Of a stretch of 64,000 nt of DNA, positions 10,574 to 47,111 are shown in pieces (position 1 is the first letter of the stretch; every line of letters starts with the position of its first letter). Both the position numbers and the translations under genes were made by a program. The notes beneath the pieces are model-generated. The model ran no database searches. It was not told where the DNA came from and saw only the letters and a program-made list of their open reading frames with translations. Source of the stretch: Trypanosoma brucei (taxonomy: Eukaryota); assembly GCA_000002445.1 (NCBI GenBank), contig CH464491.1, positions 3,872,001 through 3,936,000 of the forward strand, given 5' to 3'.

Positions 10574-11326
10574 CTAGAAATGCAGAGGTAAACTTTCGGT
10601 AGGAGAGTCAGCTGGCGTCAATTCAAGTGTTCTTTCAAACCCCTTAAATACCGGTGGAGTAGCAAAATGGACATCACCCGCGGAGCGGCGCGTCGCTGAC
10701 CGCAGAGCGCTCGACCCATCTTCAGAAAACATGGTTGTTTTACCATCAGTTGCACAGCTTGGGCTCTGTAGCATCATATCCGAATAATCAGGTGTACCAC
10801 TTTGTGGGGTCCGAGCTCTAAGATAAGTGGCGTAGAGACAATCCCTTTCGGCTGGGTCGATTGGCATCACTACTCGTGGAGATACTCCACCGCTTTGGGG
10901 ACTGCAATACCGCGACTGCTGACGCTGTTGAGGTTTTCGTTGTTGCCCCGAAGTTGTGTTGCTAAATGCATTTAAACGCCCGCTTGCTGCTTTCTCTGAC
11001 TTCTTGGATTTCAAGTTTGCTCCGGTATCTTTGTCATCTGGCTGAATGAGTTGCAGTCCCTTCGGAAGTCGGGGGTCGACGCGAACCTTCAGTTGACTGC
11101 GGGTGGTGTTGTTAAACTTCGCTACAGCCTGCATTACTAGTTTAGCGTAGCACCGGTTGAACTGCTCACCATTCTGCCGATTAAGCGCTAATTCAACCAT
11201 ATCCGGTGCTATGAAGAACCGCTTCTGCAGAATAAAATTGAGTTTGTTTCGGTGACCGAACAGTTCCCCCGGGGTACGCGGCAACTTGCGAAGCCCTTCG
11301 AATAAGTCATCTTTCTTCCACTGCAT
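10574..11326 (-). CDS. hypothetical protein (about 250 aa)
   Basis: Minus-strand ORF. The ORF-track N-terminus 'MEKIKKKRKTKGKKKK' is translation of a pyrimidine tract, so the start is placed at the internal Met 'MQWKKDDLFEGL' (about 11326). No recognisable domain. Confidence 0.4.
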   Translation of the reverse strand: MQWKKDDLFEGLRKLPRTPGELFGHRNKLNFILQKRFFIAPDMVELALNRQNGEQFNRCYAKLVMQAVAKFNNTTRSQLKVRVDPRLPKGLQLIQPDDKDTGANLKSKKSEKAASGRLNAFSNTTSGQQRKPQQRQQSRYCSPQSGGVSPRVVMPIDPAERDCLYATYLRARTPQSGTPDYSDMMLQSPSCATDGKTTMFSEDGSSALRSATRRSAGDVHFATPPVFKGFERTLELTPADSPTESLPLHF

Positions 11327-12551
11327 TCCCTTTTCTTTTTTCTTTCTACTGTGCGATACCTTTTTCCTGGGTCTTTTCTTCTTCTTTCCTTTTGTTTTCC
11401 TTTTCTTTTTGATTTTCTCCACAATCCTTCGCTTACTTTCTTATTTTCCCACACGAGAGCTTTAGTTTCCGCTCCCCCTGTCAGTTTAACCCTTCTGGAT
11501 AAATTTATAAGTATCAGTTCTTTGTTTGCTTTTCCCAACGACTTTACAAGTTTCCTACACCACTAGTAAAGAAAAAAAGAAAATGCCGCCACGGTTTTAC
11601 AACTGAAGAAAGTTGAACGACACTCAGCACCTTTTGAGTTGTCCTTATTCTTTTTTCCGTACAGCGCTTCAGTGGAGATTTCTTTTCAGTTGTCTTTGTT
11701 CCCCTTGCGAGCACTTCCTAAAAACCCTGTTAGAAGTTTGTTTGTTTGTTTTGTTATGAATGGCAGGTGTCTTCGTAAATTTATTTTGGGAGCTTTTAGA
11801 AAAGCAGCTTAAAAAGAAAAAAGAACAAATGTTCCTCTTCTTTTTTCCCCCTTAAATTAAGGTCGAGGGAGCAACCAATGCGGAAAAAAGCAACAAAAAG
11901 GAAAATGTAAAGGGAAGTGAAGGCGTTTGATAATTGATTGAGTGAAGGACAGTAAAGTTTTGTGCGGGGGAAATCTCCAAAGGGGGGGGGGAAGAGGACC
12001 CCATGGTCTGATGAGAGAAACAATTAGAGGTTACAAGGGGGAAAAAGCGCATAGCGGCAGCGTTGCAAACATACGTGCACAAATACATTAGAGTATGCAA
12101 CATCAAAATAGTGCTATTTAGTTTGATTGCAGCGCATGGGCATGCACGCGGAAGCGCGACATTAGATGTTCTTCACACTAATTTACAGTGGTAACCGGTT
12201 CCAGCGTGACGGATCGGATGTGCCTGGTAGTTCGTGGACTCCGGTCAACCTGCTCGATGTGTATTTAAAAATCGCTTCGGCACCGGAATACTCCATAAAA
12301 AACGACGACAACAACAAAATAAAAAAGAAAAAAAAGGTCCCTACGGGAATCCCTCCGTTCCACAAACCGCCACACGTCACTGAATCAGAAAAACCCGCTC
12401 GCTACAATTGTGCAGACTGTGGACCTTCAGTTTCGTTGCAATTAACACAAATCTGCTTACCATGTTTTAGTGCTCGTGCATACAAAAAACACTAAATTTA
12501 TTAAGGTTTTCATTTCGTTAGTTGCCGTGTCAGCGGCACTTTAACAAGTAC

Positions 12552-18568: not shown

Positions 18569-19685
18569 TGCGTGGCGATATGATACTTCACACCTCTCTT
18601 CGTTTAACAGTTATTTGTTGGTTTTGCTTGTGCTACTGAATCTCCGATGGAGATGCTATATGCTGTTGCACAGAGTTAACTGCGAATTACTCACTTGATA
18701 TAATAATTATCTTTAAAACGCTCTAGTGAGACCAAAATCGGAATAAATGGTTCGAAAAAGAGGGAAACATGTTACCACGAGCAAATGAAATGATGACAAA
18801 ACAGTCCTGAGGTAGTGGAGAACAGGGATTAGTACTGAGAGCAGGAAGAAGGAACAAAGTAACAATAAACAGGGGGAAAAGAAGAAAAATCGCGTGATAA
18901 GAACCAAACACAAGGCCCCATGTAATACATCTACTATATGAACTCAGTGCCGGGTACCCAAGACGAGAACACCACCAATGAACGTTCACGAATATATTTA
19001 CCCATGTGTGTATTTGTGTGTGTGCCCAGTTGTAAACGTAACGCTTCTCACTTCTTCCTTTCTACCGCAGTATCACCTTCTTAACCTCTTCTCCGCTCGC
19101 ACGTATACAAGCGAACCTGCCCAACTCTTGTCAGTGTATAAATACATTGATAGTGGTTTACATTTTCTACCCTCAGCAACAAATAAACATAACAGCCAGA
19201 GTAATAATCAATGAAGACCAGCGAAGGGGGAAGTAAAGTGGAGCAACAGAAACACGAAAGGGGAAATGAGTGCCCCCTGCAGTCCACTTAACAACAATGT
19301 TGACTTCCTTTCTTCGCTGCACGCCTACATACATCACACACACAGGCAAACAACTTTCCCTCTACTATTTGCCCAACACAATTATTGATCTCTACACCCT
19401 CCCTTTGGGAATTGCAAACAGAAAAAAATCGCCTCAGCGGGACTAATGGCCAACGACAAACGTCGTGTTAACGGCATGCCAGTAGCGGTAAACAAAATAA
19501 AAGGCGTCTGTTTCACGTGGCCACCCGCCGACTGGCGTAAGACGGGGGGCCGCGGTTAGTGCACACTGTTTGCTGTTGTCTCCCACACGCATGATATTAC
19601 TCGAGCTGTGTGAAAAAAAAAAGAAGACATCGTCCCTCCGCGAGGGAAATTTCTTTCACGAGGGGATGTAACCCGACAACCATGG

Positions 19686-20801
19686 CTACTCCTGAGCCTC
19701 CGCATTTTCTTCAGCAGGAGCATCACCCGCCGCCTCCTCTGGAGCATCTTGTGCAACCTCCTCCTGTGGTTCCTCAACGGGCTGTTCGGTAGCTTCCTCA
19801 GCAGGTTGCTCAGCCGGTTCCTCAACTGGTTGCGAAACTTCCTCAGCAGGTTGCTCCACCGGGTACGATGTTTCCTCCGCGAGTTCCTCAGTTTGCTGTG
19901 GTTCCTCTGCAGGCACCTCAGCCGGTTGTGAAGCTTCTTCCAGAGGTTCCTCAACGGGCTGTTCGGTAGCTTCCTCCACGGGTTGCTCAGCCGGCTCCTC
20001 AACTGGTTGCGAAACCTCCTCAGCAGGTTGCTCAGCCGGCTCCTCAGCTGGTTGCGAAACCTCCTCAGCAGGTTGCTCCACCGGGTACGATGTTTCCTCC
20101 GCGAGTTCCTCAGTTTGCTGTGGTTCCTCTGCAGGCACCTCAGCCGGTTGTGAAGCTTCCTCCGCAGGTTGCTCGGTTTCCTCCTCAGGTTTATCAGCTG
20201 GTTCTGGGGCCTGCTCCGCGGGTTGCTCAACTGGGTATGGATCCTCCTCTTTCTTGGGGCTCTTGAGGGCCTCTTGAATTGGTTTAGTAGAGTAGATTGA
20301 CGGCGTTATATCACATGTTGCACCCACTGGAGGAGCAGCGCTTCGAGAACCACTGACGCCAGTATAACCGATAGCCTTCACTTCGTCCGCACCAGTGCCC
20401 TTGGCTCCTTCTGTCCCTCTCTTCGTTCGGAAGCTGCTTATCAGACCTTGTTTGTAACTTGCCGCCTCTGACATGTCCCGCGTGCGCTGATCCCGCTTGT
20501 ACTCCTCCATAAACCTCTCTTGCCATTGAATTCCCTCCATGACAAGGTCCCGACGCTCAGTGTTGGATCTACGGCGCTCCTCAATGTACGCACGGAGCAC
20601 CTCCTCCTTCACCACTTCTTCCGACTCCGTTTCCTTCAGGTCGGACATGTTCACGAGCTCTGCGTGTCGCACCCACGTATCATCATTGATACAGCTTAAG
20701 TAGTCGCGGATAACCACATCATCGGGAACTAACGATTTGTGTGTCTTGTCCTCATCCACATAGAGCTGAGCAAGAGCAGTAGATGTGGGGTCAGCAGACA
20801 T
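19686..20801 (-). CDS. acidic tandem-repeat protein (EQPAEE/PVEEP repeats), function unknown
   Basis: 371 aa with a non-repetitive N-terminal ~190 aa, followed by Glu/Pro/Ala/Gln-rich 18-aa-type repeats ('EQPAEEVSQPVEEPAEQP', 'EVPAEEPQQTEELAEETSYPV'). The DNA shows a higher-order duplication of about 231 bp (19861-19938 is near-identical to 20092-20169). Confidence 0.6.
   Translation of the reverse strand: MSADPTSTALAQLYVDEDKTHKSLVPDDVVIRDYLSCINDDTWVRHAELVNMSDLKETESEEVVKEEVLRAYIEERRRSNTERRDLVMEGIQWQERFMEEYKRDQRTRDMSEAASYKQGLISSFRTKRGTEGAKGTGADEVKAIGYTGVSGSRSAAPPVGATCDITPSIYSTKPIQEALKSPKKEEDPYPVEQPAEQAPEPADKPEEETEQPAEEASQPAEVPAEEPQQTEELAEETSYPVEQPAEEVSQPAEEPAEQPAEEVSQPVEEPAEQPVEEATEQPVEEPLEEASQPAEVPAEEPQQTEELAEETSYPVEQPAEEVSQPVEEPAEQPAEEATEQPVEEPQEEVAQDAPEEAAGDAPAEENAEAQE
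19750..20230. repeat. coding tandem repeat array (54-bp subunits, about 177/231-bp higher-order units)
   Basis: Near-identical blocks recur at offsets of about 177 and 231 bp, e.g. 'gggtacgatgtttcctccgcgagttcctcagtttgctgtggttcctctgcaggcacctcagccggttgtgaagcttc' at 19861 and 20092. Confidence 0.85.
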
Positions 20802-27033: not shown

Positions 27034-28344
27034 TCAACTCTCCTCCCCATCTTCTGCTACTAATAGTGAGTTAGTCTCTGTAACATTACTTCCAACTCGT
27101 CTGTTTTCCTCCCGGAAATCTCTACCGCCTCCGTCAGATGCAGGGCTCAGTAGAGGTAATTGTTCAGGGGACTCTGCTACGTCAGCAGCTGGGACATTAA
27201 ATTCCTCTTCTGGAGAAACAGGAGGCGATTGCTTAAATTTAACAATGACAACAGACATGTTGTCGCATCCAACACCAAAGGGATGGGGGGAAAGGCAGTG
27301 ATCCAGCAATTCCTCGGCTATTTTGTCCAAGGGGACCTGACGCTGGATGCGGAGACGCACAAACCGCACCACTTGTTCGTTGCTCAACACATCCCATATC
27401 CCATCGCAAGCGACAACCGCGAATTCATCGCGTGTGCGGTCCAAAAGAGTGCGATGAACCTCCGGAGCACTCGTAACAGCCTGTTGATCCCACGGCACCA
27501 GAGTATTTGACTTGAAACTGAAGTCACCGATAGCCCTGCTAAGAGCCAACGCTCCATTCACACGGCGGTTCCACACATAGCCGCCAGCACGTTCAATGCG
27601 GGTCTGTTCCGTAGGAAGAAAGGGCTTGTGGTCTGTGCTGAGAGGCACCGGTTCCCCATCGCTACAGAGTACCGATCGGCTGTCCCCAGCATTGCCGCAG
27701 TAGAGATTGTCACCCTTAACAAAGAGAACAACCGCTGTACAACCACTCTTTTCATCCTTAAAATTTGAATAGATGTGCTTATCTATGGTCATAAATCCGT
27801 CGTAGATAGCCCTAGAGTAGTTTCCATTTTTATATGCCTCAGTTTGCGATATGAACCCGAATATATTGCCACCACAAAACTTCGCCACATTCGCCCCACT
27901 GTGGCCGTCAAACACACCGAAAAAGCCACCGTCACAGGTCAGGAGAGTAACATGATCATCCTCCATAGCCCGACGCCAGCCCTGCATGCAGCTAAACCCG
28001 AAGGAAACCCACGCATTCTCTCCACAATCTGAGAATTTCTGATTACTAGGATGCTGCATCAAGTCCGCACGACGTAGCATATTATTATAATTTGCCTCAT
28101 TAGCGTTGACGACCACGAGGTTCAGTGCATGTCGCAGTAAGTTAAACGAGCCGAACAAGAACAGCGCCAGGGTAATTATAACTGTGATGGGCCCCATTTT
28201 GGTCCCGACCAAATAACTAGCGACTATTGAAACAGCAAACGCCGCAAAAGCGCGAGCGATAGACGCTCTTGGCACGACGCAAGGACGTACGGGCGGCTGC
28301 CGGGGAGGCATCGCGCCTTTCATACTACTACTTAAACTAACCAC
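27034..28344 (-). CDS. PP2C-family (PPM) Ser/Thr protein phosphatase with N-terminal transmembrane anchor
   Basis: 436 aa. PP2C motifs 'RRAMEDDH', 'GFFGVFDGHSG', 'SGCTAVVLFV', 'GNAGDSRSVL', 'DEFAVVACDGIWDVLSNEQV' and 'GVGCDNMSVVIV'. An N-terminal hydrophobic segment 'AFAAFAVSIVASYLVGTKMGPITVIITLALFLFGSF' precedes the catalytic domain. Confidence 0.9.
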   Translation of the reverse strand: MVSLSSSMKGAMPPRQPPVRPCVVPRASIARAFAAFAVSIVASYLVGTKMGPITVIITLALFLFGSFNLLRHALNLVVVNANEANYNNMLRRADLMQHPSNQKFSDCGENAWVSFGFSCMQGWRRAMEDDHVTLLTCDGGFFGVFDGHSGANVAKFCGGNIFGFISQTEAYKNGNYSRAIYDGFMTIDKHIYSNFKDEKSGCTAVVLFVKGDNLYCGNAGDSRSVLCSDGEPVPLSTDHKPFLPTEQTRIERAGGYVWNRRVNGALALSRAIGDFSFKSNTLVPWDQQAVTSAPEVHRTLLDRTRDEFAVVACDGIWDVLSNEQVVRFVRLRIQRQVPLDKIAEELLDHCLSPHPFGVGCDNMSVVIVKFKQSPPVSPEEEFNVPAADVAESPEQLPLLSPASDGGGRDFREENRRVGSNVTETNSLLVAEDGEES

Positions 28345-29351: not shown

Positions 29352-32300
29352 TCACCCTGAGCACTCATCGACATCGACAGAAACTGATGAAGCGCTATAC
29401 CTTCCGGAGGTGCGGGAAATCGTGTCTGCATCGCACGCCGACTGTGTTCTAGTATCGTCTCCATATGTTGCTAGCAACTGCCCACTGTTATTTGTATCTG
29501 CTTGTTCCCCCTCGTCATCGGCTTTTGGTGGGTCAACTGAGGTATTGCCCACGTAGCAGCAGTAGTTCTCAATGGGAAGCTGGTGAAGTTGGTGTGAGGG
29601 GCCAACCGCATGGGGTAGGGTCTCGTACACAAATGCACCAAAGCGATGCGAGCGCGTCCCCAACCCTGATTCGGACTCCTGGTAACAATCAGATGATTGC
29701 TCAGAGAACTGCCCGGCGGTGGGACATGCTTCTTCCGTTTGCTCGTCGGGCTCTTGACGGTCAACATTTTCGCAGTCCAAATAACTCCTCTCTTCGCCAG
29801 CTGATTTTCCATCAGTATTTACCATCCCTTCCCCATCAGTTCCCTTAGTTCTGTTGCTGGTGCTGTGGTACCGGCAGGCGGTCGCGTTCTCACTCCCAAG
29901 GGACACAGCAGAGAGTTGATGCAAATTGACGGCTGATGACCCCAGAGACGTGGAGAAGGAATCTACGAGATACTTCACAATGTCGGTGATGACTTGTTCG
30001 TTGTCGATCAAGGAAACTAGCGGTAAAGGGTGGCGTCGACTATCATAGACCAAGTTTTTCTGCTTCGCGGGTCGGCAAGCCTTAAGGCATTCCGCTTTGG
30101 CCAATACTTCCTCGGCTATAACGGAAACGAGTAACCTGTCGACTAAGGGAACCTCATTGACATCTACTAAGGCATTCTGCATGGTGACATCGTCAAGGGC
30201 GGTTTCCAAATCGGGAAGAAATTTCAAGAGGAGATCCGTAATGTACGTATGACCACGCTCATGGTACCATAGAAGCGCTGAAACAAACGAAAGAAGTTTA
30301 CTCCACATCGGGAAGGGTGTGTGGTGCGACCGGAACAGTGACATAAACGGGAGTACAACGAGAATCTCAAAGTATTGTTGGAAAGAGAGAACGTTGTCCT
30401 CACACAAACAGCACCTATCATCTGCCGTATCCGTGCAACTGTGAAGGGAACAAACGTCAATGTCGTCCAGTCCCGGGCCAGAAAACGATCTTCCGGGATG
30501 AACACCATTCTGCTTACTCAAATCCACACGGCTAAGAAGCATTTCAACCGAGGGAACGTTGAATACCTCCGAGCACACTCGAAACAGTTCATCCAGCACA
30601 TATTTCATCCGCAACGACAAATTCTTCAGCGAACTACCAGAACCACCCGAAAACACCACTAACGACTGCTTCCACGTCTCGCCAAACAGTCCTAGACAAT
30701 CCCAGAGGGAATACACTGGTGGGCCACCAAGGTCGGCGTTGCTCCTCACAAGGTTCGTCGTGCTGTTCTCTCTGCTTTTCGATTCTTCTACGTGCAGTGT
30801 CTTGAGGACCTCCGGACTGAACCCAGCCAAATTAAGGGACACCCAGTCACATAGGAGAACCAGCTCGGAGAAGGCCAGCAGTGCCGCACTACCACTATTA
30901 TCCTGACTGAATTCACTTAAATACTTCAGCACTACAGCGGTGTTGTGCTTATAGTTACGCCCTATGGTACTGCGCAGTTCATCGTTATCCCTCTTTTGCT
31001 TTGCCGTAAGCCTTCCCTGCTGGAGGAGCACAAGTTGCACAGCTGCGCACTCCGGTAGGACGGTTAATTGGAAGGTACCCGACGAGCAGGGAGGAGGTTT
31101 GGGTATTACGTTAAGAAATTTCAAGCATCCATGTCTGTGGAAAACCGTCAGCAAGTCACATACCGAGGACCAAGCATCAGAAGCGAACAAGAGTGCGAAA
31201 CCAGCCCAGAAACATGAAACAAGGTAACTGCTTGGGAACGAGCTATTGCTTCCAAACGGGGTCGCAATTGCCAAAACCTCAGGCTTCGTTCTGTCCATCC
31301 CCTGCTTCTGAGATTCCGAGGAATAGAGAATCTCATGGATCGTTATGTCGCGCAGCAGGCACGCCAGCGTTGTTATGACAGGAATGCACGGGACATACCT
31401 TTTGTTCGTCACTATATGCTGAGGATTAGCACCCGACTGGACGGTGCTGTTCGCCCCCACACGATCCGACAAAACTGCGAGTAGGTGACGCAACAGGTTC
31501 GCTTCTGCCAGCTGCATTGACATCTTTTCCACCCACAGATGTCGGCTGCCGCAGCCGACAAGAAGGTTCTCGGTTGAGAGGGAGAGACACGTGGAGATGC
31601 TCCGAATTACCTTCATGCAGAGAAGCGAAATATGTGAATGAACTTGGTGCCTCCGTTGCCACGCCCTGTTTTCCATCATAAAACCCTGTGTCAGCCATTT
31701 CGATGAATCATGGAGGCAACGCTGAAGAAACCGTCGTCCGAACACATTTCGACCGTGCCCTGTAATTCCCATGAAAAGCTCAGCGAAAACAATATCCACG
31801 GTGGAAGAGGGGGAATGAGCATGGTTCTCATTTAATTTTGAATCGCCAAAGACCAGCGACTCTTCCAGTAGCAACGTATCCCAACATTCCCATATCTGCT
31901 GCATTTCATTCCCTTTCTGCGCCATCATCAAATCACGATGTCTTAACCTTGTGAGAGTGAGTTCCAACCAGTACTTTGTAGAATTCGGAGCACGGTACGT
32001 CGGGTCCGTTACGGTCCCCTTCAGCAACTTCTCCAACACCTTAAAAGCAAGGTCCACAACATAAAAGCGCGAGCCTGGCTCGTCCCGCTCATCTGACCGG
32101 TGCAACACACCGGAACTGAGGTGTGCGAGCAACATACATGAAAAATGGATGTGTAAAGTAAGATAATCCCTGTGCGCGACGCGATATATATCCTTCTTCC
32201 TCTTCAAGTGGTCCCGCCGCTTCCTTTCTTCGGACTGTTTGTCATCCTTTTCAACAGTAATTGTACGCTCAGCAGCAAAAGTTGTGTGAGTACCGCCATG

Positions 32301-35300
32301 AACAACTACTGTGCCGTTACTTTCAGTACTGCAGTGCTCTACAACCGATCCGTAGTCAATCACGCTCTTCTCATCAGACGCTCGGAAAGCACCCGCCTCC
32401 TCTGATTCTGAAGAGGAAAAATTACTTCCGTCGTTCTGAACGAGCGTATTATCGTCACTTTCAGAGCTTGCCTCGCTCTGTTGCACCACCGATCCCGTTT
32501 CCTGTTCATCCTCAACACAACTTCCTTCATCAGCATCAGTTGCATCGCGCTTCGCGAGGCTAATGATCACGTCACGTGATGGATAAGACGAGGATACGAC
32601 ATGCCGTTCATTCTTTACTTCGCAAGACCCTGCAACACTCGTAAATTCTCCAAGGGCAGAGAGGTCACGATAAATTTCCATCCATAGGCGTTGGCCATGC
32701 TCCTGCAGTCGCTCAATTGACCAAGATGCGAAAAATAGAACACTTACGAGTGGTTTCACAAAACTTAGCTCCAAAGAGGTCTCCACATCGTCTGGGTAAA
32801 GGGGCATCGGGGAAAGACATGTACGACCTGAACATCTCTCTCTCCGCACCGTACTAAAAGCACGGCCTCTTACTGCTTCTTGTGATAGCCTCTGAAGTCC
32901 GTGCCAGATGTTTTCCTCGGCAATCCATGCCATCTTACCTTTACCAGCAACATTAACGTTGGGACAGCGGCCGATTGACATTTCGAAATTTATGCAATTC
33001 ACCGACGACATCGCTGTGTAACTGGGTGCGATTCTATCATCTTTTGAAAACTCTGAAGCGATGTCGTTCAGCGCAGTGTCGTACTTTGTGGAACTACTTG
33101 GCGCACTTGACGCGTGCCTTTGGTTCAGAAGCCTCATTTGATATATTGAAAACAAAAAGAAATTGTAGTATGTGCTCTGTATCTGGGAGTCCAGGCTTAC
33201 ACGACCCTCTCCCACCCCCTGTGACAACTTTTCGCTGGAAATAAATCTATCAATGTAGTAGGCAATAGTGTTCTTATCAGCAATATCTATCATAGATGTC
33301 ACGAGGACTGCAATGAAGCGATCCCTTCCGGCACCTTCATATGCAATCCAACCACCCCATACTTCAGCAATGTAATTATCCGAAATTGAGTTTCGACATG
33401 CCTGAGTAACCTTTAACATAGTGCGAAGGCTTTCTTCTGTAGCTTCCACTTGTCGCACAAACAGAGACAGTAGCCTGAGTGCTATTTTTACTGAAACAGG
33501 GTGTATTGGAGCTGTAGATGAAACCGTGGCCCCTGCGGAAAGGATGATAGAGCTCGCCATTGTAAAGAAATTTTGCAAAAGCTGACCGGATACGTCCACG
33601 TTATCCCTTTGCATTCGTGTTGCGTTGAGAAGGAGGTAAAACCAACGAGCAAACCCATCCTCGCCACTTGTATCATTTATAAGCAGTTCTCCACAGAGCA
33701 ACTGCAGTAGCGCCTTCGCCTTGGAACGAACGATCGGATCAAAAACAGGTCCAACGGAAGACTCTTCGTACGAATACATCAATGCGTAAAAGATTAAGGA
33801 GCTGTTGGTTACTATCATTTTGTTCACGCCGTCGCAGCTTGTGCCGCTTCCCAGCAAACTTGCACGTGCGTCTGAGCTAGCATCAGAACGCGTTTGGTAG
33901 GATATACGCTTTACACAAACCCTCGGTGACGTCACCGTCCGCTCTAGACGACCCCACAGAACTGAAAAGGCAGTTACCATTATGGAGAACAGTGACCTGT
34001 GAACTGGGCTATCAACTGGCTCTTGGTGAAGCACACGACGCATTGATTCCCATGATGAAGCGTCAGCGACTAGAAGCGTCACCGCGATATTGAAGATACA
34101 CGGCATGTCACCCTCGAGGTTGGTGTTATTTGGCGGTAGAGCGTGCTGCAACCACTTCAGGAAATTCTCTGAAAAACTGTTTGCAATACTGGCTACGGTC
34201 GCACTCGGAGAGCCCCCTGTAAGTTGCTCCATTGATAATATAACCGTTTGCAAAGCAAGAACACCCTTCTCCATGGCAACTAGAACATTCGGATGCAACT
34301 GCGCCTCGGGGTTGTCATCGACTTGCAAAGGGTTTATGTCGAGAAACCACTGAACCTGATGTGTCAGGCTGTAAAATACTTTGAGAAGCAATATGCTCTT
34401 TAGTTGTGTTTCCAGGTACTTCGTTTCCTTTGAAAATATCAATGTCACCAAGTCGTAAAACAAACCACGAAGGAAAATAATGGTCATCGCTCCCCCAACT
34501 GTGTTACGGCTGAAAGAAGCCCTCAACTCATCACCGTTGTTCGTAGCTGGAAGACTCCGTGACAGCGCAAGCCAAGAGCGCGCGGCCACTCCATTTCCCT
34601 CGTCGAGTATTTGAAACAGAGTTTCTGCCTGAAGCTCTTGTTGTTCTTCAATGTTCTCACCAGCTTCAAACAGGCGTGTGTTACCAAGCAACAGAAAATC
34701 AATAGTCCCAACAATAATCTTCTCCATTTGCGTACGCTGTATGGCTAATTTCTCCTGCTCACGGCTTGGAATAATGGGAGGTTTTACAAAGAAGCGGCGA
34801 CCCACAACCACAAGGGTTGGCAAGAAAACAGATAAACACGCCCAGGCCTTATGTTCCGCATCCTTCGCTGAGTGGCTACAGTTGCATTTGTACAGGATAT
34901 CTCGAAGGCTCTTGATGAGGGGATGGTTACTGTCCATCACACCAGGAAAGGTAACGAGTGGCGTGTCCCGTGTCCATGTGTATTCAAGTGGTCCAAGATG
35001 AAGAAACTGCAAAACATCAAAAAAGGAGAACGTGGTAGTAGAACTCACTCCATACGTGATCAAGGGCACTGTGATGTCATCCATCAACTTGTTGTATTCC
35101 GCATATCGACTAATAATTTGCCACGTTACTTCTTTGTAGTCATCAAAATTACCCACAATCGTAGTATTTCCGCCATGCCGGTGCCCGGGTCGATTACGCT
35201 CGCCTCCAGCTGTCACGCGATTTGCATCCGGTAGGCTTTTGGTGTTATCGACAGATAATATCAAGAACCTCAAAACATAGCAAGACCTCCACAGAGGTAG

Positions 35301-38300
35301 TTTTCCCTCCATGTGGAGTTTCAAACCACGTTGGACTATTTCCCCTGCAAGGGCACACGTCACGCGCACAAGCGCGGAGCCAGGGTAGTAACAGTGGGTT
35401 GCGAGAACAAGTGCTAACGCAGACACGAATATGAGGAGATATGCCTCACTATCCGCCATCATGCAGCGGTCGCCAAGTGGAGTTGAGACCAGCGGGCTCC
35501 CCGAGTTGTTCACACGAATGTGCATTTCAACATCCGCAGGCGTCCCGCGTGAGGATTCTACTACACCTATATGCGTCCGGAATGACCTCTCTTCCACATA
35601 TCCCATTCCCTTTTGGTGCCTTTCAGACTTAGGATGCCAGCTGGTACTTGCGGGAAATGGGATGTAAGACTCCTCCAGTGATAAGTACATATCTTCGAAG
35701 CTTTCACCAACCTCCTTTAGAACCTCAGAAGCCGTGAATCGTTGATTCTGTGCTCCTTCGTGGCCATGAGTTCCCAACCTCATCCCAGCAGAAGTCCCGG
35801 GAGCATTGTGAGTCCTTCCAACAGCATCCTCATTCGTTGAGAGTTGGTCCCCACAATGGACGCGCTGCAGAGACAGTAGAGAAGCTAATATGTCCAACTG
35901 CAGGAGCGCCTGCTGCCGCACAGTGCGGCGAGTGTGACCAAGTAGAATGATAGCTAACCCTTCAAGTGCGTCCATGAGCGTTGTGCCTTCAAGTGCCCTC
36001 ACTACATACCAACCCTCTGATTCCGGCGAAGAAGAGCATGCTTCCAGTTGGTCAACATTTATGTTCATGGGTATTAACAGCCAATTCCATTTGTCTCTGC
36101 GTGAACCTACAGCACAGTTAAATGCCCCCACCTCTGCCCCCGCGGAAAAAAAATCCCATCGACGACCCAACTGAGGTGAATCCTTGACATCATCATGAGC
36201 CGTTCGCACGTACATGTCGTTGAGGGTTATGTACTCCATTTCGTCTCTAAGCTCTAGCAGGTGTGAAGTAAGATACTTCACCAACTCTTCCACACGCCCA
36301 TTATCTTCACTAACAAGTACGTCGATAACACTCTCAGCCAGCCTGTATATCGCGAAGGCACAACTACAAAGGCTTCGCCTCCCGTAACTACTCCCGTTGC
36401 TATTGTTTCCGCTCTTCAGGTAAAGCGGCAACACCACACGAGCAACGGCCTCCTTGAGTTGTGAGTCTGCGCCCACAAGAAGTTTCGGTAGCGTGAGGCT
36501 TCTATCGAGCATAGCGCATGCAGAAGTGAAAAAACCAGCGACAATAAGAACACTAACAAGTTGAAGCTTGAATTCGCTTGTACCGTTCATCGAACTCTCC
36601 TGCGCAGCATCATTTAGGTACTCAAAGGCTGCCTTACGTATATCGTTAATAGCGGTTCGTATGTTGTTCGTAAACTTTATAAAAGTAAGCAAATTTTTCA
36701 AGTGACCTTCGTGCCAAAGTGCAGTGGGTCCTTCGACCGTAGTGACGACATAGTTATAGCACGAACCGCGGTAAAATATCATTCCCATAATCTTACTTCG
36801 AATCTGTGTTTTTGTATCGGTAAAATCGTCATACAGCTCGTCAACAGTGTTGTGATACCCACAATTTAAATTACATGCAAGTACAGCGTTCTTAGTGCCA
36901 TTTTTCTTCTCAGACATCTTTGAGTCCACTGAAAAGTACTTCAACTCACAGAGCGCAGAGAGCGCGCGCATGGCAATGAGTTGGCCGTAGCAGATGGTCG
37001 GACCCTTTACACTTTTTACAGACCCTCTTGTTTTGTTCCTGCAATCGAGCAACCTTAACAGCCAACCTGTTGCTTTGAGGTAGAAGTGTTCCTGCTGCAG
37101 GCAAAACAATAACAAATCTGATGCCGCCATAATGCACGCCGGAGCACCAGTGCCTTCCCGCCACTTTTCGTTGTGTAGGTCCTTCACCAACATCTTTTCC
37201 GTATAGTAAAGAAAGCACTCGGTGCAGCTCTTTACATCTTCAGCCAATGCCGTCGCGTTTCTTAGGTGCAGATCAACAAGTAGCCCACCAACGTGTAACG
37301 TGGAGTAAAGAATGGAGCTTCTGTCTATATTATCAACCGAAGAGAACAAATTTCTCAATGTCTTCAAAAAGCTCGGCATTTTTTTCAAAAGAGATGCTGG
37401 GGACACACAACCCAGCATCGCGGCAACGGAAATAGCATACCACATGGAATATTTGCACTTTCGCCAGGAGTCTAATTCGCCTAGCAGCATCTCGGATATC
37501 GGTTGCCCCGAAGAACCCACCAACTGATCATGTATTTTGGTATTGCCGTTGTCTGGTACAGGTTGCGGAAACAAACAACCCAAAAGTAGCAATGTGACGA
37601 CACCACGTAGTCGCTTCTCCTTCTTCGCATGTGGCAGTATCTTCTTCACAAGAACGAGTAATACTACAAGTGAATCCACGCTACCTGGACCATTGTGAAA
37701 AATGTGGCACATATATAGTGCGTCGAAGAAAACAGTAACAAACATACTTTCCACGGCTTTTGTTCCTTTTGAGGCCTCAACCGACTTCAGGGATGAGCAT
37801 TTGCTGAATAATTCCGTCGCTAAGTCTTGAAATCGAGTAGATAGAAACGATGGCAGCTTTCCACTCAAAATGATTGGGAGACCCCCCACCTGTGCGTCAT
37901 TAGTCAAAGAAGTTCTACCACCCCTAGTTTTTTCAGACCAGTTGCGGTGAAAGTGCCAAAGGCATTCCAAGTCCTGCACAAGTACCTGACGGTTTGCTTG
38001 AGGAATACCCGACCTCACCCTACTTACAATATCATCCCACCTCACACTTTCCCAAGTTTCGCACGAGAGACGTGCTTCCTTCAGCAACGAAACACAAAGA
38101 CGCACCGAACTCATACAGTGCCCTCTAACAGCTTGCTCATCAATTTGAGATAAAAGGTCGTAGCAAGAGCTAGAGAGCAAGGAATAGTACACACGTGACG
38201 GTGACACAATGCTGCAACCTGCACTCTGTAGTACCGCATGGTAATGGGCCTCCAATTTCACTGCAAGATCGTGTGTCAGGAAAAACACCGGTGGGAGAAG

Positions 38301-39251
38301 TGACAACTGTGAACCGTAATCATTTTTATTGGCGCCGGAAGCATCCGCGTCGCTGCACAAAAGTCGACATGAATAAAGCAATCCACCTGCACACACGGCA
38401 GAAGCATTGTGTGCGTCAAGTACGACAGAGACACTCAACGCCCACACCAACTCAACCACACTGGCCAATAAATGAGCCTCACTCCAATCCCATTGTGCAG
38501 ATGCACCACTTGTCACGTGCGAGTCTACTGCAACCATGGACCTGGTTAGAGATCCTGGTGGGCATGTTTTCCTTAATCGTGTACAGAGTTTCGAGATTGA
38601 GTCCTTGATAGCCGCCACGACGTTTTCATGCAACACGTCTAGGAGGGAAACCGGGATGTTTCCCAATGTCCCCAGTGCCTCGTTATTGGGGACAGAAGAA
38701 GAAGGCCCTGTGGTTCCACTCATGCGTTTGAAGTCAAGAATATTGGCCATGAAAGTGTTTCGTACCATCGTGAGCTGCGCTACAACATCACTAGTTGTCA
38801 ATCGCCACCGCATGTGTGTAGAGTCCGCAGATTTTGTTTCTTCTAAAGAGGGAGCACAATATCTCCCCTTCACTATGTGAGTCCACTGAGCCAAATCCTC
38901 TCCAGCCAACCTCGTCAGCTCCGCCATCGCTGTCCCACGCAAGGGCAACCTTGACTCGGTATCATCGCTATCTTTATCAAGTAGGACAGCGTTATTATGG
39001 TTCCCCCTTTTCTTCAGCAGAAATTCGATGAGAGTTTTCTTCTCCCTGGAGTTGGATCTAAACATTTGGTTAATTGAATCATTGATATGAAGTCCATCGA
39101 CACGGACGAGAAATGCATACACAATATTGGCATATGATATACCAAAGTGCTCCGGATGACTCATATGACCCTCAAAACGACAGCTAATATAGAATGAAAG
39201 GGTACCACACAATTGCCTCCTCTCCTCTTTCAAACGTCCCTTCTTCCTCAC
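29352..39251 (-). CDS. giant hypothetical protein (3299 aa), largely alpha-helical/repeat-like with no catalytic motif recognised
   Basis: Uninterrupted 9.9-kb minus-strand ORF. No P-loop, kinase, HECT, BEACH or Sec7 signatures were seen by eye. The C-terminal ~250 aa are acidic/Ser-rich and low-complexity. Confidence 0.7.
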   Translation of the reverse strand: MRKKGRLKEERRQLCGTLSFYISCRFEGHMSHPEHFGISYANIVYAFLVRVDGLHINDSINQMFRSNSREKKTLIEFLLKKRGNHNNAVLLDKDSDDTESRLPLRGTAMAELTRLAGEDLAQWTHIVKGRYCAPSLEETKSADSTHMRWRLTTSDVVAQLTMVRNTFMANILDFKRMSGTTGPSSSVPNNEALGTLGNIPVSLLDVLHENVVAAIKDSISKLCTRLRKTCPPGSLTRSMVAVDSHVTSGASAQWDWSEAHLLASVVELVWALSVSVVLDAHNASAVCAGGLLYSCRLLCSDADASGANKNDYGSQLSLLPPVFFLTHDLAVKLEAHYHAVLQSAGCSIVSPSRVYYSLLSSSCYDLLSQIDEQAVRGHCMSSVRLCVSLLKEARLSCETWESVRWDDIVSRVRSGIPQANRQVLVQDLECLWHFHRNWSEKTRGGRTSLTNDAQVGGLPIILSGKLPSFLSTRFQDLATELFSKCSSLKSVEASKGTKAVESMFVTVFFDALYMCHIFHNGPGSVDSLVVLLVLVKKILPHAKKEKRLRGVVTLLLLGCLFPQPVPDNGNTKIHDQLVGSSGQPISEMLLGELDSWRKCKYSMWYAISVAAMLGCVSPASLLKKMPSFLKTLRNLFSSVDNIDRSSILYSTLHVGGLLVDLHLRNATALAEDVKSCTECFLYYTEKMLVKDLHNEKWREGTGAPACIMAASDLLLFCLQQEHFYLKATGWLLRLLDCRNKTRGSVKSVKGPTICYGQLIAMRALSALCELKYFSVDSKMSEKKNGTKNAVLACNLNCGYHNTVDELYDDFTDTKTQIRSKIMGMIFYRGSCYNYVVTTVEGPTALWHEGHLKNLLTFIKFTNNIRTAINDIRKAAFEYLNDAAQESSMNGTSEFKLQLVSVLIVAGFFTSACAMLDRSLTLPKLLVGADSQLKEAVARVVLPLYLKSGNNSNGSSYGRRSLCSCAFAIYRLAESVIDVLVSEDNGRVEELVKYLTSHLLELRDEMEYITLNDMYVRTAHDDVKDSPQLGRRWDFFSAGAEVGAFNCAVGSRRDKWNWLLIPMNINVDQLEACSSSPESEGWYVVRALEGTTLMDALEGLAIILLGHTRRTVRQQALLQLDILASLLSLQRVHCGDQLSTNEDAVGRTHNAPGTSAGMRLGTHGHEGAQNQRFTASEVLKEVGESFEDMYLSLEESYIPFPASTSWHPKSERHQKGMGYVEERSFRTHIGVVESSRGTPADVEMHIRVNNSGSPLVSTPLGDRCMMADSEAYLLIFVSALALVLATHCYYPGSALVRVTCALAGEIVQRGLKLHMEGKLPLWRSCYVLRFLILSVDNTKSLPDANRVTAGGERNRPGHRHGGNTTIVGNFDDYKEVTWQIISRYAEYNKLMDDITVPLITYGVSSTTTFSFFDVLQFLHLGPLEYTWTRDTPLVTFPGVMDSNHPLIKSLRDILYKCNCSHSAKDAEHKAWACLSVFLPTLVVVGRRFFVKPPIIPSREQEKLAIQRTQMEKIIVGTIDFLLLGNTRLFEAGENIEEQQELQAETLFQILDEGNGVAARSWLALSRSLPATNNGDELRASFSRNTVGGAMTIIFLRGLFYDLVTLIFSKETKYLETQLKSILLLKVFYSLTHQVQWFLDINPLQVDDNPEAQLHPNVLVAMEKGVLALQTVILSMEQLTGGSPSATVASIANSFSENFLKWLQHALPPNNTNLEGDMPCIFNIAVTLLVADASSWESMRRVLHQEPVDSPVHRSLFSIMVTAFSVLWGRLERTVTSPRVCVKRISYQTRSDASSDARASLLGSGTSCDGVNKMIVTNSSLIFYALMYSYEESSVGPVFDPIVRSKAKALLQLLCGELLINDTSGEDGFARWFYLLLNATRMQRDNVDVSGQLLQNFFTMASSIILSAGATVSSTAPIHPVSVKIALRLLSLFVRQVEATEESLRTMLKVTQACRNSISDNYIAEVWGGWIAYEGAGRDRFIAVLVTSMIDIADKNTIAYYIDRFISSEKLSQGVGEGRVSLDSQIQSTYYNFFLFSIYQMRLLNQRHASSAPSSSTKYDTALNDIASEFSKDDRIAPSYTAMSSVNCINFEMSIGRCPNVNVAGKGKMAWIAEENIWHGLQRLSQEAVRGRAFSTVRRERCSGRTCLSPMPLYPDDVETSLELSFVKPLVSVLFFASWSIERLQEHGQRLWMEIYRDLSALGEFTSVAGSCEVKNERHVVSSSYPSRDVIISLAKRDATDADEGSCVEDEQETGSVVQQSEASSESDDNTLVQNDGSNFSSSESEEAGAFRASDEKSVIDYGSVVEHCSTESNGTVVVHGGTHTTFAAERTITVEKDDKQSEERKRRDHLKRKKDIYRVAHRDYLTLHIHFSCMLLAHLSSGVLHRSDERDEPGSRFYVVDLAFKVLEKLLKGTVTDPTYRAPNSTKYWLELTLTRLRHRDLMMAQKGNEMQQIWECWDTLLLEESLVFGDSKLNENHAHSPSSTVDIVFAELFMGITGHGRNVFGRRFLQRCLHDSSKWLTQGFMMENRAWQRRHQVHSHISLLCMKVIRSISTCLSLSTENLLVGCGSRHLWVEKMSMQLAEANLLRHLLAVLSDRVGANSTVQSGANPQHIVTNKRYVPCIPVITTLACLLRDITIHEILYSSESQKQGMDRTKPEVLAIATPFGSNSSFPSSYLVSCFWAGFALLFASDAWSSVCDLLTVFHRHGCLKFLNVIPKPPPCSSGTFQLTVLPECAAVQLVLLQQGRLTAKQKRDNDELRSTIGRNYKHNTAVVLKYLSEFSQDNSGSAALLAFSELVLLCDWVSLNLAGFSPEVLKTLHVEESKSRENSTTNLVRSNADLGGPPVYSLWDCLGLFGETWKQSLVVFSGGSGSSLKNLSLRMKYVLDELFRVCSEVFNVPSVEMLLSRVDLSKQNGVHPGRSFSGPGLDDIDVCSLHSCTDTADDRCCLCEDNVLSFQQYFEILVVLPFMSLFRSHHTPFPMWSKLLSFVSALLWYHERGHTYITDLLLKFLPDLETALDDVTMQNALVDVNEVPLVDRLLVSVIAEEVLAKAECLKACRPAKQKNLVYDSRRHPLPLVSLIDNEQVITDIVKYLVDSFSTSLGSSAVNLHQLSAVSLGSENATACRYHSTSNRTKGTDGEGMVNTDGKSAGEERSYLDCENVDRQEPDEQTEEACPTAGQFSEQSSDCYQESESGLGTRSHRFGAFVYETLPHAVGPSHQLHQLPIENYCCYVGNTSVDPPKADDEGEQADTNNSGQLLATYGDDTRTQSACDADTISRTSGRYSASSVSVDVDECSG

Positions 39252-40126
39252 GGTATATTATTTAAAACCTCTACCTGCTGTTGGTGTCTTTACAATCTTT
39301 CCCCCTCCGTATCGCAACCGGACGGCGGTGAGCGATATCTCCCCCTGCTCACTCTTCACACTTTAACTTCTTCTCACCGAAAATAAGAAAAAAGGAACGA
39401 CGACTCTCCCTGAGAGAAAATTTATATAATATGAGATTCTTTTTCACGGTGAATCGTCTTCCGGCTACTAGCCGTGATGCATGAAACTTACATGCAACGA
39501 ACAAAAATACTTCACCTAACCTAGAGTTCTCTGTTGTCTCAGCCAATTTCCTACCTTTCCGTGGTAGCGCCGTATCACTCCGCTCTATATTTACTTCTTT
39601 ATAGCACTTGATGAAATACTTAACCGACGCTTCCTTTTATTTATCACGTTCGACTTGTTTTCCCCTTCTCTCGTGAGTGCGGAGCCAATGACGAAGATCA
39701 GTTGTTGTTGTTTTTTTTTTTTAATATGCTTTCTCTCGTGAGTTTTCACGCACACTACGTGTAAAAACAAGGAAATTTCTCATAGAAGAACAGATGAAAA
39801 AAAAAAAAGAAACGATAAAATTCGATACGAATATGACAATTAACATTAAAAAAAAAGAAGCAGATGATAATGTTCTCTTTTCACTGGGCAACAGAGATAC
39901 CAAAAAGCAAAAAAATATATACGGAAGAAAAGGCACAATCCACGGGGAAACGACGCAACGACTTGTGAACATAAAAAGAAACATCACACGAAAAATCATT
40001 CGGTCGCTTTCCCCCGATTTAACACCCCTCCTACTCACGCACTAACTCAATTGCACCCAACTAATCCTAAATATTTCATTTTATTGTAACGCATTGCTTA
40101 CATACTCTTCATTCATTTTTTTTTTT

Positions 40127-40955: not shown

Positions 40956-42941
40956 TTACACATACACGTTAAACGGTGCTTTTGCCCACGATGAAGTTGT
41001 TGCGGCGGGTTTCACAGTTTTCTTTGGTGGCGTATAAAGGCGGTCGTAAACGCTTTTCTTTTGACGGAAATTACTGCCCTCCCCAGACGAGATGCTGTTG
41101 TCACCATTCATTTCCACATGAGCGTGAGTATTCATGCGACCATACGGTAGAATTTTATGGTCAACGATGTTATCCAAAGGTGATGGGACTGTTGATGTAG
41201 TGGAAACACGTGCATAATGCTCGTGCACTCCCTTGCGACGGGGTGTGCGTTCGCCATTTCTCTCCGAGCCGAATAATTTTTTTGAAACCATGAACCCCTC
41301 CTTGCCATCATTAAAAGAGCTTGAGGGGGTTTTGTCTAGCAGAATGCTCAACTCCTCGTTTAAGTTCGGCTCCTCATATTGCCGCACATCCGTATGTTTG
41401 CTCATTCCGTTAGAGCGTGTGCCAACCTGCTCATGTGGTTTCACACCCGACTTACCGGACGGTGTAATGGATGGAGAAGAGGTGGATGACGAGGGCGCGC
41501 CCACTTTGGCACGGGCCCGCTGTTTTTTCTTCAAAATGGACCGTTCGAGCATACTCTGAGCATTTGTAGATAGGCTCAAGAGGTTGAGTATAAAGGAATA
41601 ATCCGTACCGTTCCGCTGCAGAACAGAAAACGCTTCGTGGTGCCGCAGCTTCATCAGTTGTTTCAGCAGAGTTGCCACTTCAGCCTCCTCAAACGATGAG
41701 TTGGTATACCACATGGTTTCCCCACCTGAAACGGACGAAGATTCGGGAAACTGAGTTGCCGACGAGGGCATCTTAGCCCGTCGGCGACGCAATAAAATTT
41801 TCTCGACGGCTTCCGCCACTCTCACACATTGTGGTGAGCCATTTAAGTCATCAGCATTATCTTTATCCTCACTGTCGTCATCATCGCTCGAAAGTATTGT
41901 AAACTGGTGAAATTGGTTTTCATATTTTGTGGCTTTGCCTTCGGCGGGACACCATATGATGATGGCCTCCCTCTCGTCCATCGCAAAGCGCCCGATCTTC
42001 GAATAGCGACCGCGCTCACCCCTCAATAGACAAAAGACCTCCTGCTGCAACCGGCTGAGATGCGTTAAACGTTTGTCTTGAGGTGACCGTGCTGTGAGAA
42101 GTGGTGGTGCAAGTTCTGGTATCTTTCTTGTCTTCAGTATGTGGCACAAGACACTGCGAGGGAGCTCTGTCAGGAAGTTATAAAGTTCAAGCCACTCTTT
42201 TGGATCAACTTCCGGGTTTTGTACTGCCTCGATAAGTTCCATCAGCTCCCTTGCGACTCCGCCATCCAACGCTGGAGAAAGAAGAAATGACGGCAACTTC
42301 TCTCCACCAAGCAATGAGTAGCCGAGGCATAAGTCAACATCTTGCGACAAAGGTGAAGGTGTTTCCTTGCCCTGCCGTGGAATGGGGCTAATGCATCGAA
42401 GAGCATCAGTACTCACCATTTGCACGAGTGCATCATTTTCGTTAACCACTCGAAACGCGGCATCGGTTGTTTGTGTTCCCCGCTCCCGCCTCTGTGGGGT
42501 CTCGTTCATGTAAGGAGCTGTGGCAGTGGAGGGTCGCCGTGATCTTGCGGCACTGTTCAAACCACTTCCGCTAATGCGAGTAAGCCAGTGAGGATGCCTG
42601 GCGGGAGTGTTCTCGCCATTTGTGCGGGATTCCTGCGGATGAGCAGATGGCTCATGTTTACTACTGAATGTATTGTTACTTGTTGCTGTGAGGCCATTTG
42701 TACGCTCGGGTCTTGAAGACACGACGCTTCGGGAGCCCTCGCTCCGGCACGCTGCTGTTCCGGGTGTACTTCCGCTACGGTATTTATTTGGTACGGGCCG
42801 AGGAGGGGACGCGCGGGTTCCACGTGGCCGGTGAAGTCCTCGACTGCGGCGCGGTGACGAGTTTTGTATGTACAAAAAGAAAACCACCGAGACGATACTT
42901 AGTCCCGCCCACGCTAGTTTTTCCCTATCCATTGAAAACAC
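40956..42941 (-). CDS. hypothetical protein with N-terminal signal-anchor/TM segment (661 aa)
   Basis: N-terminus 'LAWAGLSIVSVVFFLYIQ' is hydrophobic and the rest is Ser/Arg/Pro-rich with no recognisable domain. Same orientation as neighbours. Confidence 0.5.
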   Translation of the reverse strand: MFSMDREKLAWAGLSIVSVVFFLYIQNSSPRRSRGLHRPRGTRASPPRPVPNKYRSGSTPGTAACRSEGSRSVVSSRPERTNGLTATSNNTFSSKHEPSAHPQESRTNGENTPARHPHWLTRISGSGLNSAARSRRPSTATAPYMNETPQRRERGTQTTDAAFRVVNENDALVQMVSTDALRCISPIPRQGKETPSPLSQDVDLCLGYSLLGGEKLPSFLLSPALDGGVARELMELIEAVQNPEVDPKEWLELYNFLTELPRSVLCHILKTRKIPELAPPLLTARSPQDKRLTHLSRLQQEVFCLLRGERGRYSKIGRFAMDEREAIIIWCPAEGKATKYENQFHQFTILSSDDDDSEDKDNADDLNGSPQCVRVAEAVEKILLRRRRAKMPSSATQFPESSSVSGGETMWYTNSSFEEAEVATLLKQLMKLRHHEAFSVLQRNGTDYSFILNLLSLSTNAQSMLERSILKKKQRARAKVGAPSSSTSSPSITPSGKSGVKPHEQVGTRSNGMSKHTDVRQYEEPNLNEELSILLDKTPSSSFNDGKEGFMVSKKLFGSERNGERTPRRKGVHEHYARVSTTSTVPSPLDNIVDHKILPYGRMNTHAHVEMNGDNSISSGEGSNFRQKKSVYDRLYTPPKKTVKPAATTSSWAKAPFNVYV

Positions 42942-46649: not shown

Positions 46650-47111
<462 letters not shown>

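What the first reader, a model, noticed from the sequence alone, without database searches (positions are those of the whole stretch)
29352..39251. Uninterrupted 9.9-kb ORF encoding a 3299-aa protein with no recognisable catalytic motif
This is one of the largest ORFs one would expect in such a genome. By eye it lacks kinase, ATPase, HECT, BEACH or Sec7 motifs and looks like a helical-repeat scaffold with an acidic Ser-rich tail. Giant scaffold proteins in trypanosomes are often cytoskeletal, flagellar or nuclear-pore associated and are poorly characterised.
Basis: seen in the sequence. Interest (0 to 1): 0.55.

Follow-up and report, generated by a model that had tools for sequence, protein, structure and literature searches.

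The report
Giant helical flagellar-pocket scaffold protein
The 9.9-kb ORF is a real Trypanosoma brucei gene (inferred ID Tb927.11.14920) for a 363-kDa, all-helical, non-enzymatic protein found only in trypanosomes, which a published tagging atlas places on one side of the flagellar pocket; its function is unstudied, but it is an already annotated gene of an ordinary structural class.

Summary
The ORF is real at 29352..39251 (-). Translation most likely starts at the first ATG (39164), giving 3270 aa rather than 3299. It is identical to T. b. brucei TREU927 XP_829550.1 / Q381U3, 'hypothetical protein, conserved'. A gene count anchored on both sides (CPC2 = Tb927.11.14840, ZFP2 = Tb927.11.14950) makes it Tb927.11.14920.

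There are no Pfam, NCBIfam or PDB-sequence hits, even with a family profile, and no catalytic signatures. AlphaFold models of residues 1-1110 and 1200-2200 are 59-67% helix with almost no strand. Fold searches return only generic HEAT/ARM solenoids, with no outlier family.

Orthologues were found only in Trypanosoma (vivax, grayi, rangeli, cruzi), at about 38-41% identity to T. grayi against 67% for the neighbouring PP2C. An exhaustive search with the N-terminal third found nothing outside the genus.

TrypTag source data list Tb927.11.14920 among four of 119 flagellar-pocket proteins classed 'ventral'.

Best reading: a fast-evolving, lineage-restricted alpha-solenoid scaffold at the flagellar pocket. 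The synteny test for Leishmania orthologues could not be run. Interest is modest.

The parts
29352..39251 (-).
   Evidence: chance probability about 3e-74
29352..39164 (-). Most likely real CDS: 3270 aa plus stop (29352-29354), 363 kDa; identical to TREU927 XP_829550.1 / Q381U3; inferred gene ID Tb927.11.14920 (old Tb11.01.6560)
   Evidence: first ATG and orthologue N-termini; identity; ID from the two-sided gene count
39165..39420 (-). Putative 5'UTR and trans-splice acceptor region: polypyrimidine tracts at 39385-39397 and 39412-39420, no upstream ATG
   Evidence: the splice-site position itself is inferred, not mapped
35865..39164 (-). Structured block 1 (residues 1-1100): all-alpha solenoid with 43 helices; the N-terminal ~60 aa are unusually conserved (52% identity to the T. 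cruzi fragment)
   Evidence: AF2 model m4541acec31d8, mean pLDDT 51.5, pTM 0.50; helix statistics
36165..37832 (-). Best-modelled part (residues 445-1000): stacked helical hairpins, pLDDT 70-94 for residues 445-710 and mostly 55-85 for 720-1000; contains the conserved motifs ASDLLLFxLQQE and WLLRLL
35565..35864 (-). Linker 1 (residues 1101-1200): low hydrophobicity, low pLDDT, poorly conserved (29% identity), with one conserved helix (RFTASEVLKEVGESFEDMY)
32565..35564 (-). Structured block 2 (residues 1201-2200): all-alpha and the best-conserved block (up to 52% identity per 100 aa)
   Evidence: AF2 model mac0b559a0232, mean pLDDT 43.7
35166..35201 (-). Conserved loop motif ERNRPGHxxGGN (residues 1322-1333), conserved between T. 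brucei and T. grayi and present in the T. rangeli fragment
32721..32762 (-). FVKPLVSVLFFASW (residues 2135-2148): 14 consecutive residues invariant between T. brucei and T. grayi, the longest invariant run
32265..32564 (-). Acidic Ser-rich linker 2 (residues 2201-2300): pI 4.05, 22% D+E, 25% S+T, least conserved stretch (21% identity); likely disordered
29355..29864 (-). Acidic Ser-rich C-terminal tail (residues 3101-3270), pI 4.2, poorly conserved
29550..29651 (-). Conserved island inside the tail (residues 3172-3205, SHRFGAFVYETL...QLPIENY): candidate short interaction motif
   Evidence: alignment with T. grayi; function inferred only

Best explanation
The ORF is the T. brucei gene Tb927.11.14920. 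It encodes a 363-kDa non-enzymatic protein made of three large alpha-helical solenoid (HEAT/ARM-like) blocks joined by two flexible linkers, one strongly acidic and Ser-rich, and ending in an acidic tail. The family is detectable only within the genus Trypanosoma and evolves quickly. In procyclic cells the tagged protein sits on the ventral side of the flagellar pocket, the only site of endocytosis and exocytosis in this parasite. The most likely role is a large passive scaffold: its extended helical surfaces and flexible acidic segments bind several partner proteins and hold them at one face of the pocket membrane or its supporting cytoskeleton, helping to make the pocket asymmetric. Shown here: the gene, its start codon, the lack of catalytic domains, its helical nature, its restricted distribution and its divergence. 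Taken from the literature: the localisation. Inferred: the ID mapping (from gene order) and the scaffold role.
Against: Both structure models are low-confidence overall (mean pLDDT 43.7 and 51.5), because only 2-5 sequences were available. Block 3 and the overall arrangement were not modelled. The gene ID comes from counting ORFs, not from a sequence-to-ID table. The identification of the ORF at 10574-11422 as CPC2 rests on the count itself plus a PUF9 motif that I recalled from memory. The localisation is one annotation from a high-throughput tagging screen in one life-cycle stage; I could not see the images or learn which terminus was tagged. No interaction, phenotype or expression data were found. 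'Scaffold' is the default inference for any large solenoid and is not specific. Absence outside Trypanosoma was tested exhaustively only for residues 1-1150 with a single sequence. The word-indexed searches proved unreliable for this family (one search missed T. grayi even though it was in the query).
Confidence: 0.55

Rival explanations
1. It is a very diverged orthologue of a pan-eukaryotic giant HEAT-type trafficking or morphogenesis scaffold (for example Fry/Furry-Tao3, HEATR5/Laa1, Mon2/Dopey, huntingtin, spatacsin or an EFR3-like plasma-membrane scaffold). On this reading its sequence has drifted beyond the reach of HMMs, and orthologues also exist in Leishmania and other kinetoplastids.
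Against: No Pfam model of any such family (MOR2-PAG1, Dopey_N, Mon2, Sec7_N, huntingtin, spatacsin_C and others) hits any of five members, even at E<=1. A family profile finds no PDB chain at E<=10, although huntingtin, NF1, TRRAP, EFR3 and AP complexes are in the PDB. The fold-search lists are flat, with no family standing out and TM-scores of 0.1-0.2.
Confidence: 0.2
2. It is a structural component of the pocket-associated cytoskeleton (microtubule quartet, hook complex or collar neighbourhood) rather than of the membrane-trafficking machinery. It would act as a spacer or linker that fixes pocket shape.
Against: There are no coiled-coil-like repeats or tandem repeats, which are typical of many trypanosome cytoskeletal giants. 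The TOG hits are no better than dozens of unrelated solenoids. The table files it under pocket sub-compartments, not under the cytoskeletal structures.
Confidence: 0.15
3. The pocket annotation is not informative (tagging artefact, weak signal, or my ID mapping is off by one gene), and the protein works elsewhere, for example as a cytoplasmic or nuclear assembly factor.
Against: The count closes exactly from two independently anchored genes, with ten ORFs for ten IDs and no RNA genes in between. The 'ventral' class is small and specific (4 of 119), which is unlike a default or background annotation. The protein's UniProt accession (Q381U3) and the Tb927.11.149xx IDs were absent from the supplementary tables of a 2026 SSU-processome pull-down study; this is weak evidence.
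Confidence: 0.1

Closest known systems
HEAT/ARM alpha-solenoid scaffolds in general (karyopherin-beta family, CAND1, SF3B1, Nup188/192, EFR3, adaptor-complex trunk domains)
Fry/Furry (Tao3/Mor2/Pag1), ~3000-aa cell-morphogenesis scaffolds of NDR kinases
   Same: Similar length, an all-helical HEAT-like build, no catalytic domain, and action at polarised cortical sites (established knowledge).
   Different: None of the three MOR2-PAG1 Pfam domains hits any family member at E<=1. No link to NDR or MOB proteins was tested.
The TrypTag flagellar-pocket 'ventral' cohort (Tb927.10.3890, Tb927.8.8140, Tb927.9.1600)
   Same: They share the same rare localisation class in the same screen.
   Different: Nothing is known to me about the other three, and no paper text in the library mentions them. 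Whether the four interact is unknown.
Lineage-specific clathrin-associated proteins of trypanosomes (TbCAPs; Manna et al. 2017, PMC5399782)
   Same: Kinetoplastid-restricted proteins without recognisable domains that act at the flagellar pocket in endocytosis.
   Different: Tb927.11.14920 is not mentioned in that paper's main text, and its supplements are not held. No clathrin box or adaptor-binding motif was found in the disordered regions.

Membership tests
Alpha-solenoid (HEAT/ARM-like) structural class | Almost exclusively alpha-helical, with helices of about 12-30 residues paired into stacked hairpins | tested here: met
Alpha-solenoid (HEAT/ARM-like) structural class | Recognisable HEAT or Arm sequence repeats (Pfam HEAT, HEAT_2, HEAT_EZ, Arm) or internal sequence periodicity | tested here: not met
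   0 Pfam families at E<=1. There are no self-BLAST hits, no hhalign similarity within or between blocks and no DNA tandem repeats.
Fry/Furry (MOR2-PAG1) | MOR2-PAG1 N-terminal, middle and C-terminal domains detectable by Pfam | tested here: not met
   No hit in T. brucei, T. grayi, T. rangeli, T. vivax or T. cruzi sequences at E<=1.
Large regulatory enzymes and GEF-like giants (PIKK kinases, HECT ligases, BEACH, Sec7/Mon2, AAA+ such as dynein or midasin) | Presence of the catalytic or signature domain | tested here: not met
   No Pfam or NCBIfam hits. No Walker A, kinase, PI3K or RING signatures.
Bridge-like lipid-transfer proteins (VPS13, ATG2, BLTP1/2) | Chorein_N domain and a long beta-rich groove | tested here: not met
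   No Chorein_N or VPS13 Pfam hit. The modelled two thirds of the protein contain <=1.4% strand.
Giant polytopic membrane proteins (for example Piezo-like) | Many strongly hydrophobic ~20-residue transmembrane segments conserved between orthologues | tested here: not met
   Only 7-8 weak Kyte-Doolittle peaks (all below 2.0), several containing charged residues.
TrypTag flagellar-pocket 'ventral' proteins | Gene ID listed in that class in the published source data | tested here: met
   Tb927.11.14920 is listed under 'ventral' in sheet 'Figure5I'. Fig. 5i is the flagellar-pocket sub-compartment count. The link from ID to this ORF is by the two-sided gene count, which is an inference.
Kinetoplastid-wide conserved protein (as the annotation 'hypothetical protein, conserved' suggests) | Orthologues in Leishmania, Phytomonas, Bodo and others, ideally at the syntenic position upstream of the PP2C | tested here: inconclusive
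   Exhaustive phmmer with residues 1-1150 found only Trypanosoma sequences. Two metagenome motif scans were empty. Residues 1151-3270 were never searched exhaustively.

The most novel reading that the evidence does not exclude
A giant scaffold that arose within, or diverged beyond recognition in, the genus Trypanosoma and that, with three other 'ventral' proteins, defines a previously uncharacterised asymmetric domain of the flagellar pocket. This domain would organise where endocytosis or exocytosis takes place, making it a lineage-specific piece of the machinery that sustains the parasite's very high surface-membrane turnover.
Probability: 0.2. Interest if true: 0.6.

Novelty: new member of a known kind. 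Interest (0 to 1): 0.35.

Why it matters
The flagellar pocket is the only site of endocytosis and exocytosis in African trypanosomes, and it is central to immune evasion and nutrient uptake. Much of its machinery is lineage-specific and unknown. A 363-kDa genus-restricted scaffold confined to one face of the pocket would be a concrete handle on how the pocket is made asymmetric. Because it has no detectable host homologue, it would in principle be parasite-specific. For now, however, this is an already annotated hypothetical protein of an ordinary fold class with one high-throughput localisation, and nothing found here overturns current ideas.

Tried and rejected
1. Word-indexed homologue searches with the whole protein and with the family alignment returned only the brucei cluster. 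The second missed T. grayi even though that sequence was in the query, so 'no hit' from this tool is weak evidence.
2. Pfam, NCBIfam and PDB-sequence searches, by single sequence and by profile, all came back empty.
3. Synteny test. I stopped there and did not try to re-enter the proteins another way, so the Leishmania synteny question is untested. The only hint is that the T. cruzi PP2C and the T. cruzi N-terminal fragment both list a longest contig of 196,768 bp.
4. Two metagenome motif scans were empty. The first attempt failed because the alignment included fragments.
5. The AFDB50 fold library was unavailable.
6. Hydrophobic-moment periodicity did not discriminate between blocks and was discarded.
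7. A trafficking short-linear-motif scan of the disordered regions found nothing.
8. The transmembrane hypothesis was rejected.
9. Internal duplication of blocks was rejected.
10. Literature. Searches for Q381U3, Tb11.01.65xx and Tb927.11.149xx found no main text on this gene. The RIT-seq paper is not held. Supplements of four proteomics papers either do not list the gene or are not held.
11. TbCAP334 (a name recalled from memory) was considered, but the mass here is 363 kDa, not 334.

Full report
OBSERVATION. At this base composition the probability of such a frame arising by chance is about 3e-74. All but one of the 23 ORFs of at least 200 aa lie on the same strand. The exception, on the plus strand, overlaps a minus-strand ORF. 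This pattern is that of a kinetoplastid polycistronic unit. The figure of 3299 aa comes from starting at an in-frame GTG. The first ATG is codon 30 (window 39164). It is the only ATG in the ~250 nt downstream of two polypyrimidine tracts, and it matches the N-termini of the orthologues. The CDS is therefore 29352..39164 (-), 3270 aa, 363.3 kDa, pI 6.0.

IDENTITY. The protein is 100% identical to T. b. brucei TREU927 XP_829550.1 / EAN80438.1 / UniProt Q381U3, 'hypothetical protein, conserved', on chromosome 11. It differs at 26 positions from the T. b. gambiense protein.

I derived the TriTrypDB ID from gene order, anchored on both sides. The WW+CCCH ORF at 46650..47081 is ZFP2, which is Tb927.11.14950 (PMC9757043). 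The adjacent PUF/NOP9-like ORF is consistent with PUF7, Tb11.01.6600 (PMC2855960; Pfam). CPC2 is Tb927.11.14840 and is a PUF9-target mRNA (bioRxiv 10.1101/2022.05.10.491326). The ORF at 10574..11422 has three UUGUACC motifs within ~600 nt downstream of its stop codon, i.e. in its 3'UTR. That this is the PUF9 motif is from my memory of Archer et al. 2009.

Exactly ten substantial same-strand ORFs lie between these two anchors, and there are no tRNA or Rfam genes in the window. The ten IDs 14850-14940 therefore map one-to-one, and the giant ORF is Tb927.11.14920 (old Tb11.01.6560). This mapping is an inference, but a tightly constrained one.

WHAT THE PROTEIN LOOKS LIKE. Composition along the chain shows three hydrophobic blocks, at about residues 1-1100, 1201-2200 and 2301-3100. 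They are separated by a low-hydrophobicity linker (1101-1200) and a strongly acidic Ser/Thr-rich linker (2201-2300, pI 4.05). An acidic Ser-rich tail follows (3101-3270, pI 4.2).

Pfam gives no family at E<=1 for this protein or for any of four orthologue sequences. NCBIfam gives nothing meaningful. PDB chain sequences give nothing, either with the single sequence or with a family profile at E<=10. Regex checks find no Walker A, kinase, PI3K, RING or zinc-finger signatures. Hydrophobic peaks are weak and partly charged, so it is not a polytopic membrane protein. There are no DNA tandem repeats, no self-similarity by BLAST, and no profile-profile similarity within or between blocks.

STRUCTURE. 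Both AlphaFold jobs were run with the few orthologue rows available. Residues 1200-2200 gave mean pLDDT 43.7 and pTM 0.38. Residues 1-1110 gave mean pLDDT 51.5 and pTM 0.50, with residues 445-710 at pLDDT 70-94 and 720-1000 mostly at 55-85.

The evidence therefore supports the fold class (HEAT/ARM-like solenoid) but no family membership. Block 3 was not modelled, and AFDB50 was not available.

DISTRIBUTION AND RATE. The exhaustive HMMER search of 1.84 billion representatives with residues 1-1150 found five real relatives, all from Trypanosoma: the brucei cluster, a full-length protein of 3255 aa, and three fragments. There was also one spurious tandem-repeat protein. The sources name the four non-brucei sequences as T. 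grayi, T. rangeli, T. vivax and T. cruzi, so the family spans both the salivarian and stercorarian branches.

T. brucei and T. grayi are 37.5% identical over the T. brucei residues, or 41% by the tool's count. The neighbouring PP2C is 67% identical between the same two species, so the giant evolves comparatively fast. Conservation peaks at residues 1300-1600, 1900-2000, 2500-2800 and 2900-3000 and is lowest in the linkers and tail.

Notable invariant runs are FVKPLVSVLFFASW (2135-2148), WGGWIAYEG (1936-1944), CAAVQLVLLQQGR (2706-2718) and ERNRPGH..GGN (1322-1333). A conserved island also sits within the otherwise divergent tail (3172-3205).

Nothing was found outside the genus, but this is only partly tested. 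The two word-indexed searches are unreliable here (one search missed T. grayi). Two metagenome motif scans were empty.

LOCALISATION FROM THE LITERATURE. No main text in the searchable library mentions Tb927.11.14910, 14920 or 14930, or the old IDs. The TrypTag atlas (Billington et al. 2023, PMC9981465) holds one supplementary sheet, 'Figure5I', which lists 119 proteins under eight sub-localisations: distal, lumen, patches, points, proximal, region, ring and ventral. The paper's Fig. [quoted passage not shown] The text speaks of eight pocket sub-domains and names the same two 'lumen' proteins, so the sheet is the flagellar-pocket table. Tb927.11.14920 is one of four 'ventral' entries, with Tb927.10.3890, Tb927.8.8140 and Tb927.9.1600. 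Exo99, which I recall as Tb927.10.420, is under 'patches', so the ventral class is not simply the exocyst.

MECHANISM. The best-supported reading (confidence about 0.55) is a non-enzymatic alpha-solenoid scaffold that is lineage-restricted, or else extremely diverged. It would be held at one face of the flagellar pocket and offer long helical surfaces and flexible acidic, probably phosphorylatable segments for multivalent partner binding.

The rivals are as follows:
- A drifted orthologue of a pan-eukaryotic giant scaffold such as Fry, HEATR5, Mon2/Dopey, huntingtin or spatacsin (0.2). The complete lack of Pfam or PDB profile signal argues against it.
- A pocket-cytoskeleton structural element (0.15).
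- An uninformative localisation or an off-by-one ID (0.1).

COMPARISON AND VERDICT. The protein works like, and looks like, the large class of HEAT/ARM scaffolds, but it fails every family-level membership test that could be run. The gene is already annotated and already localised in a public atlas. What is added here is a corrected start codon, the domain layout, evidence for the all-helical fold class, the restricted and fast-evolving distribution, and the link between this ORF and the rare 'ventral pocket' class. Interest is modest (0.35). The most novel reading still open is a genus-specific organiser of an asymmetric pocket domain, with a probability of about 0.2.

Noticed in passing
window 9977-9994 and 10316-10322 (minus strand), downstream of ORF 10574..11422: Three UUGUACC motifs cluster in the 3'UTR of the ORF that the gene count identifies as CPC2 (Tb927.11.14840), a reported PUF9-target mRNA. 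Only six minus-strand copies occur in the whole 64-kb window.
   Followed up: partly
window 19686..20801 (-), tandem repeat 19981-20078: A 371-aa protein (inferred Tb927.11.14880) has an acidic Pro/Glu/Gln-rich C-terminal repeat (PAEEPAEQPVEE...). A 45-bp DNA tandem repeat underlies it, and the out-of-frame ORF at 19556..20230 is a by-product of the repeat. No Pfam hit.
   Followed up: no
window 27034..28344 (-): The PP2C phosphatase immediately downstream of the giant gene has a long N-terminal hydrophobic stretch (FAAFAVSIVASYLVG...ITVIITLALFLFGSF), which suggests a membrane-anchored PP2C. Its orthologues are well conserved across kinetoplastids (52-69% identity).
   Followed up: no
window 60001-64000: GC drops to 0.39-0.41 and AT skew rises to +0.25/+0.13, against about 0.47 GC elsewhere in the window. 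This may be a long intergenic or UTR stretch, or a change of region.
   Followed up: no
window 40956..42941 (-) and 51200..53671 (-): Two further proteins on the same strand, of 661 aa and 823 aa (the first inferred to be Tb927.11.14930), have no Pfam domain. The 661-aa protein is the giant's upstream neighbour and is Ser/Pro-rich.
   Followed up: no
tools: The word-indexed homologue search failed to return T. grayi P0011 even when that sequence was part of the query alignment, although the cluster look-up shows it is in the collection. Negative results from these two tools should not be over-read for this family.
   Followed up: yes
T. cruzi fragment P0015 and T. cruzi PP2C P0021: Both list a longest contig of 196,768 bp, which hints that the giant gene and the PP2C are neighbours in T. 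cruzi as well (conserved synteny). In T. grayi the two proteins are on contigs of different length (28,863 and 66,890 bp).
   Followed up: partly
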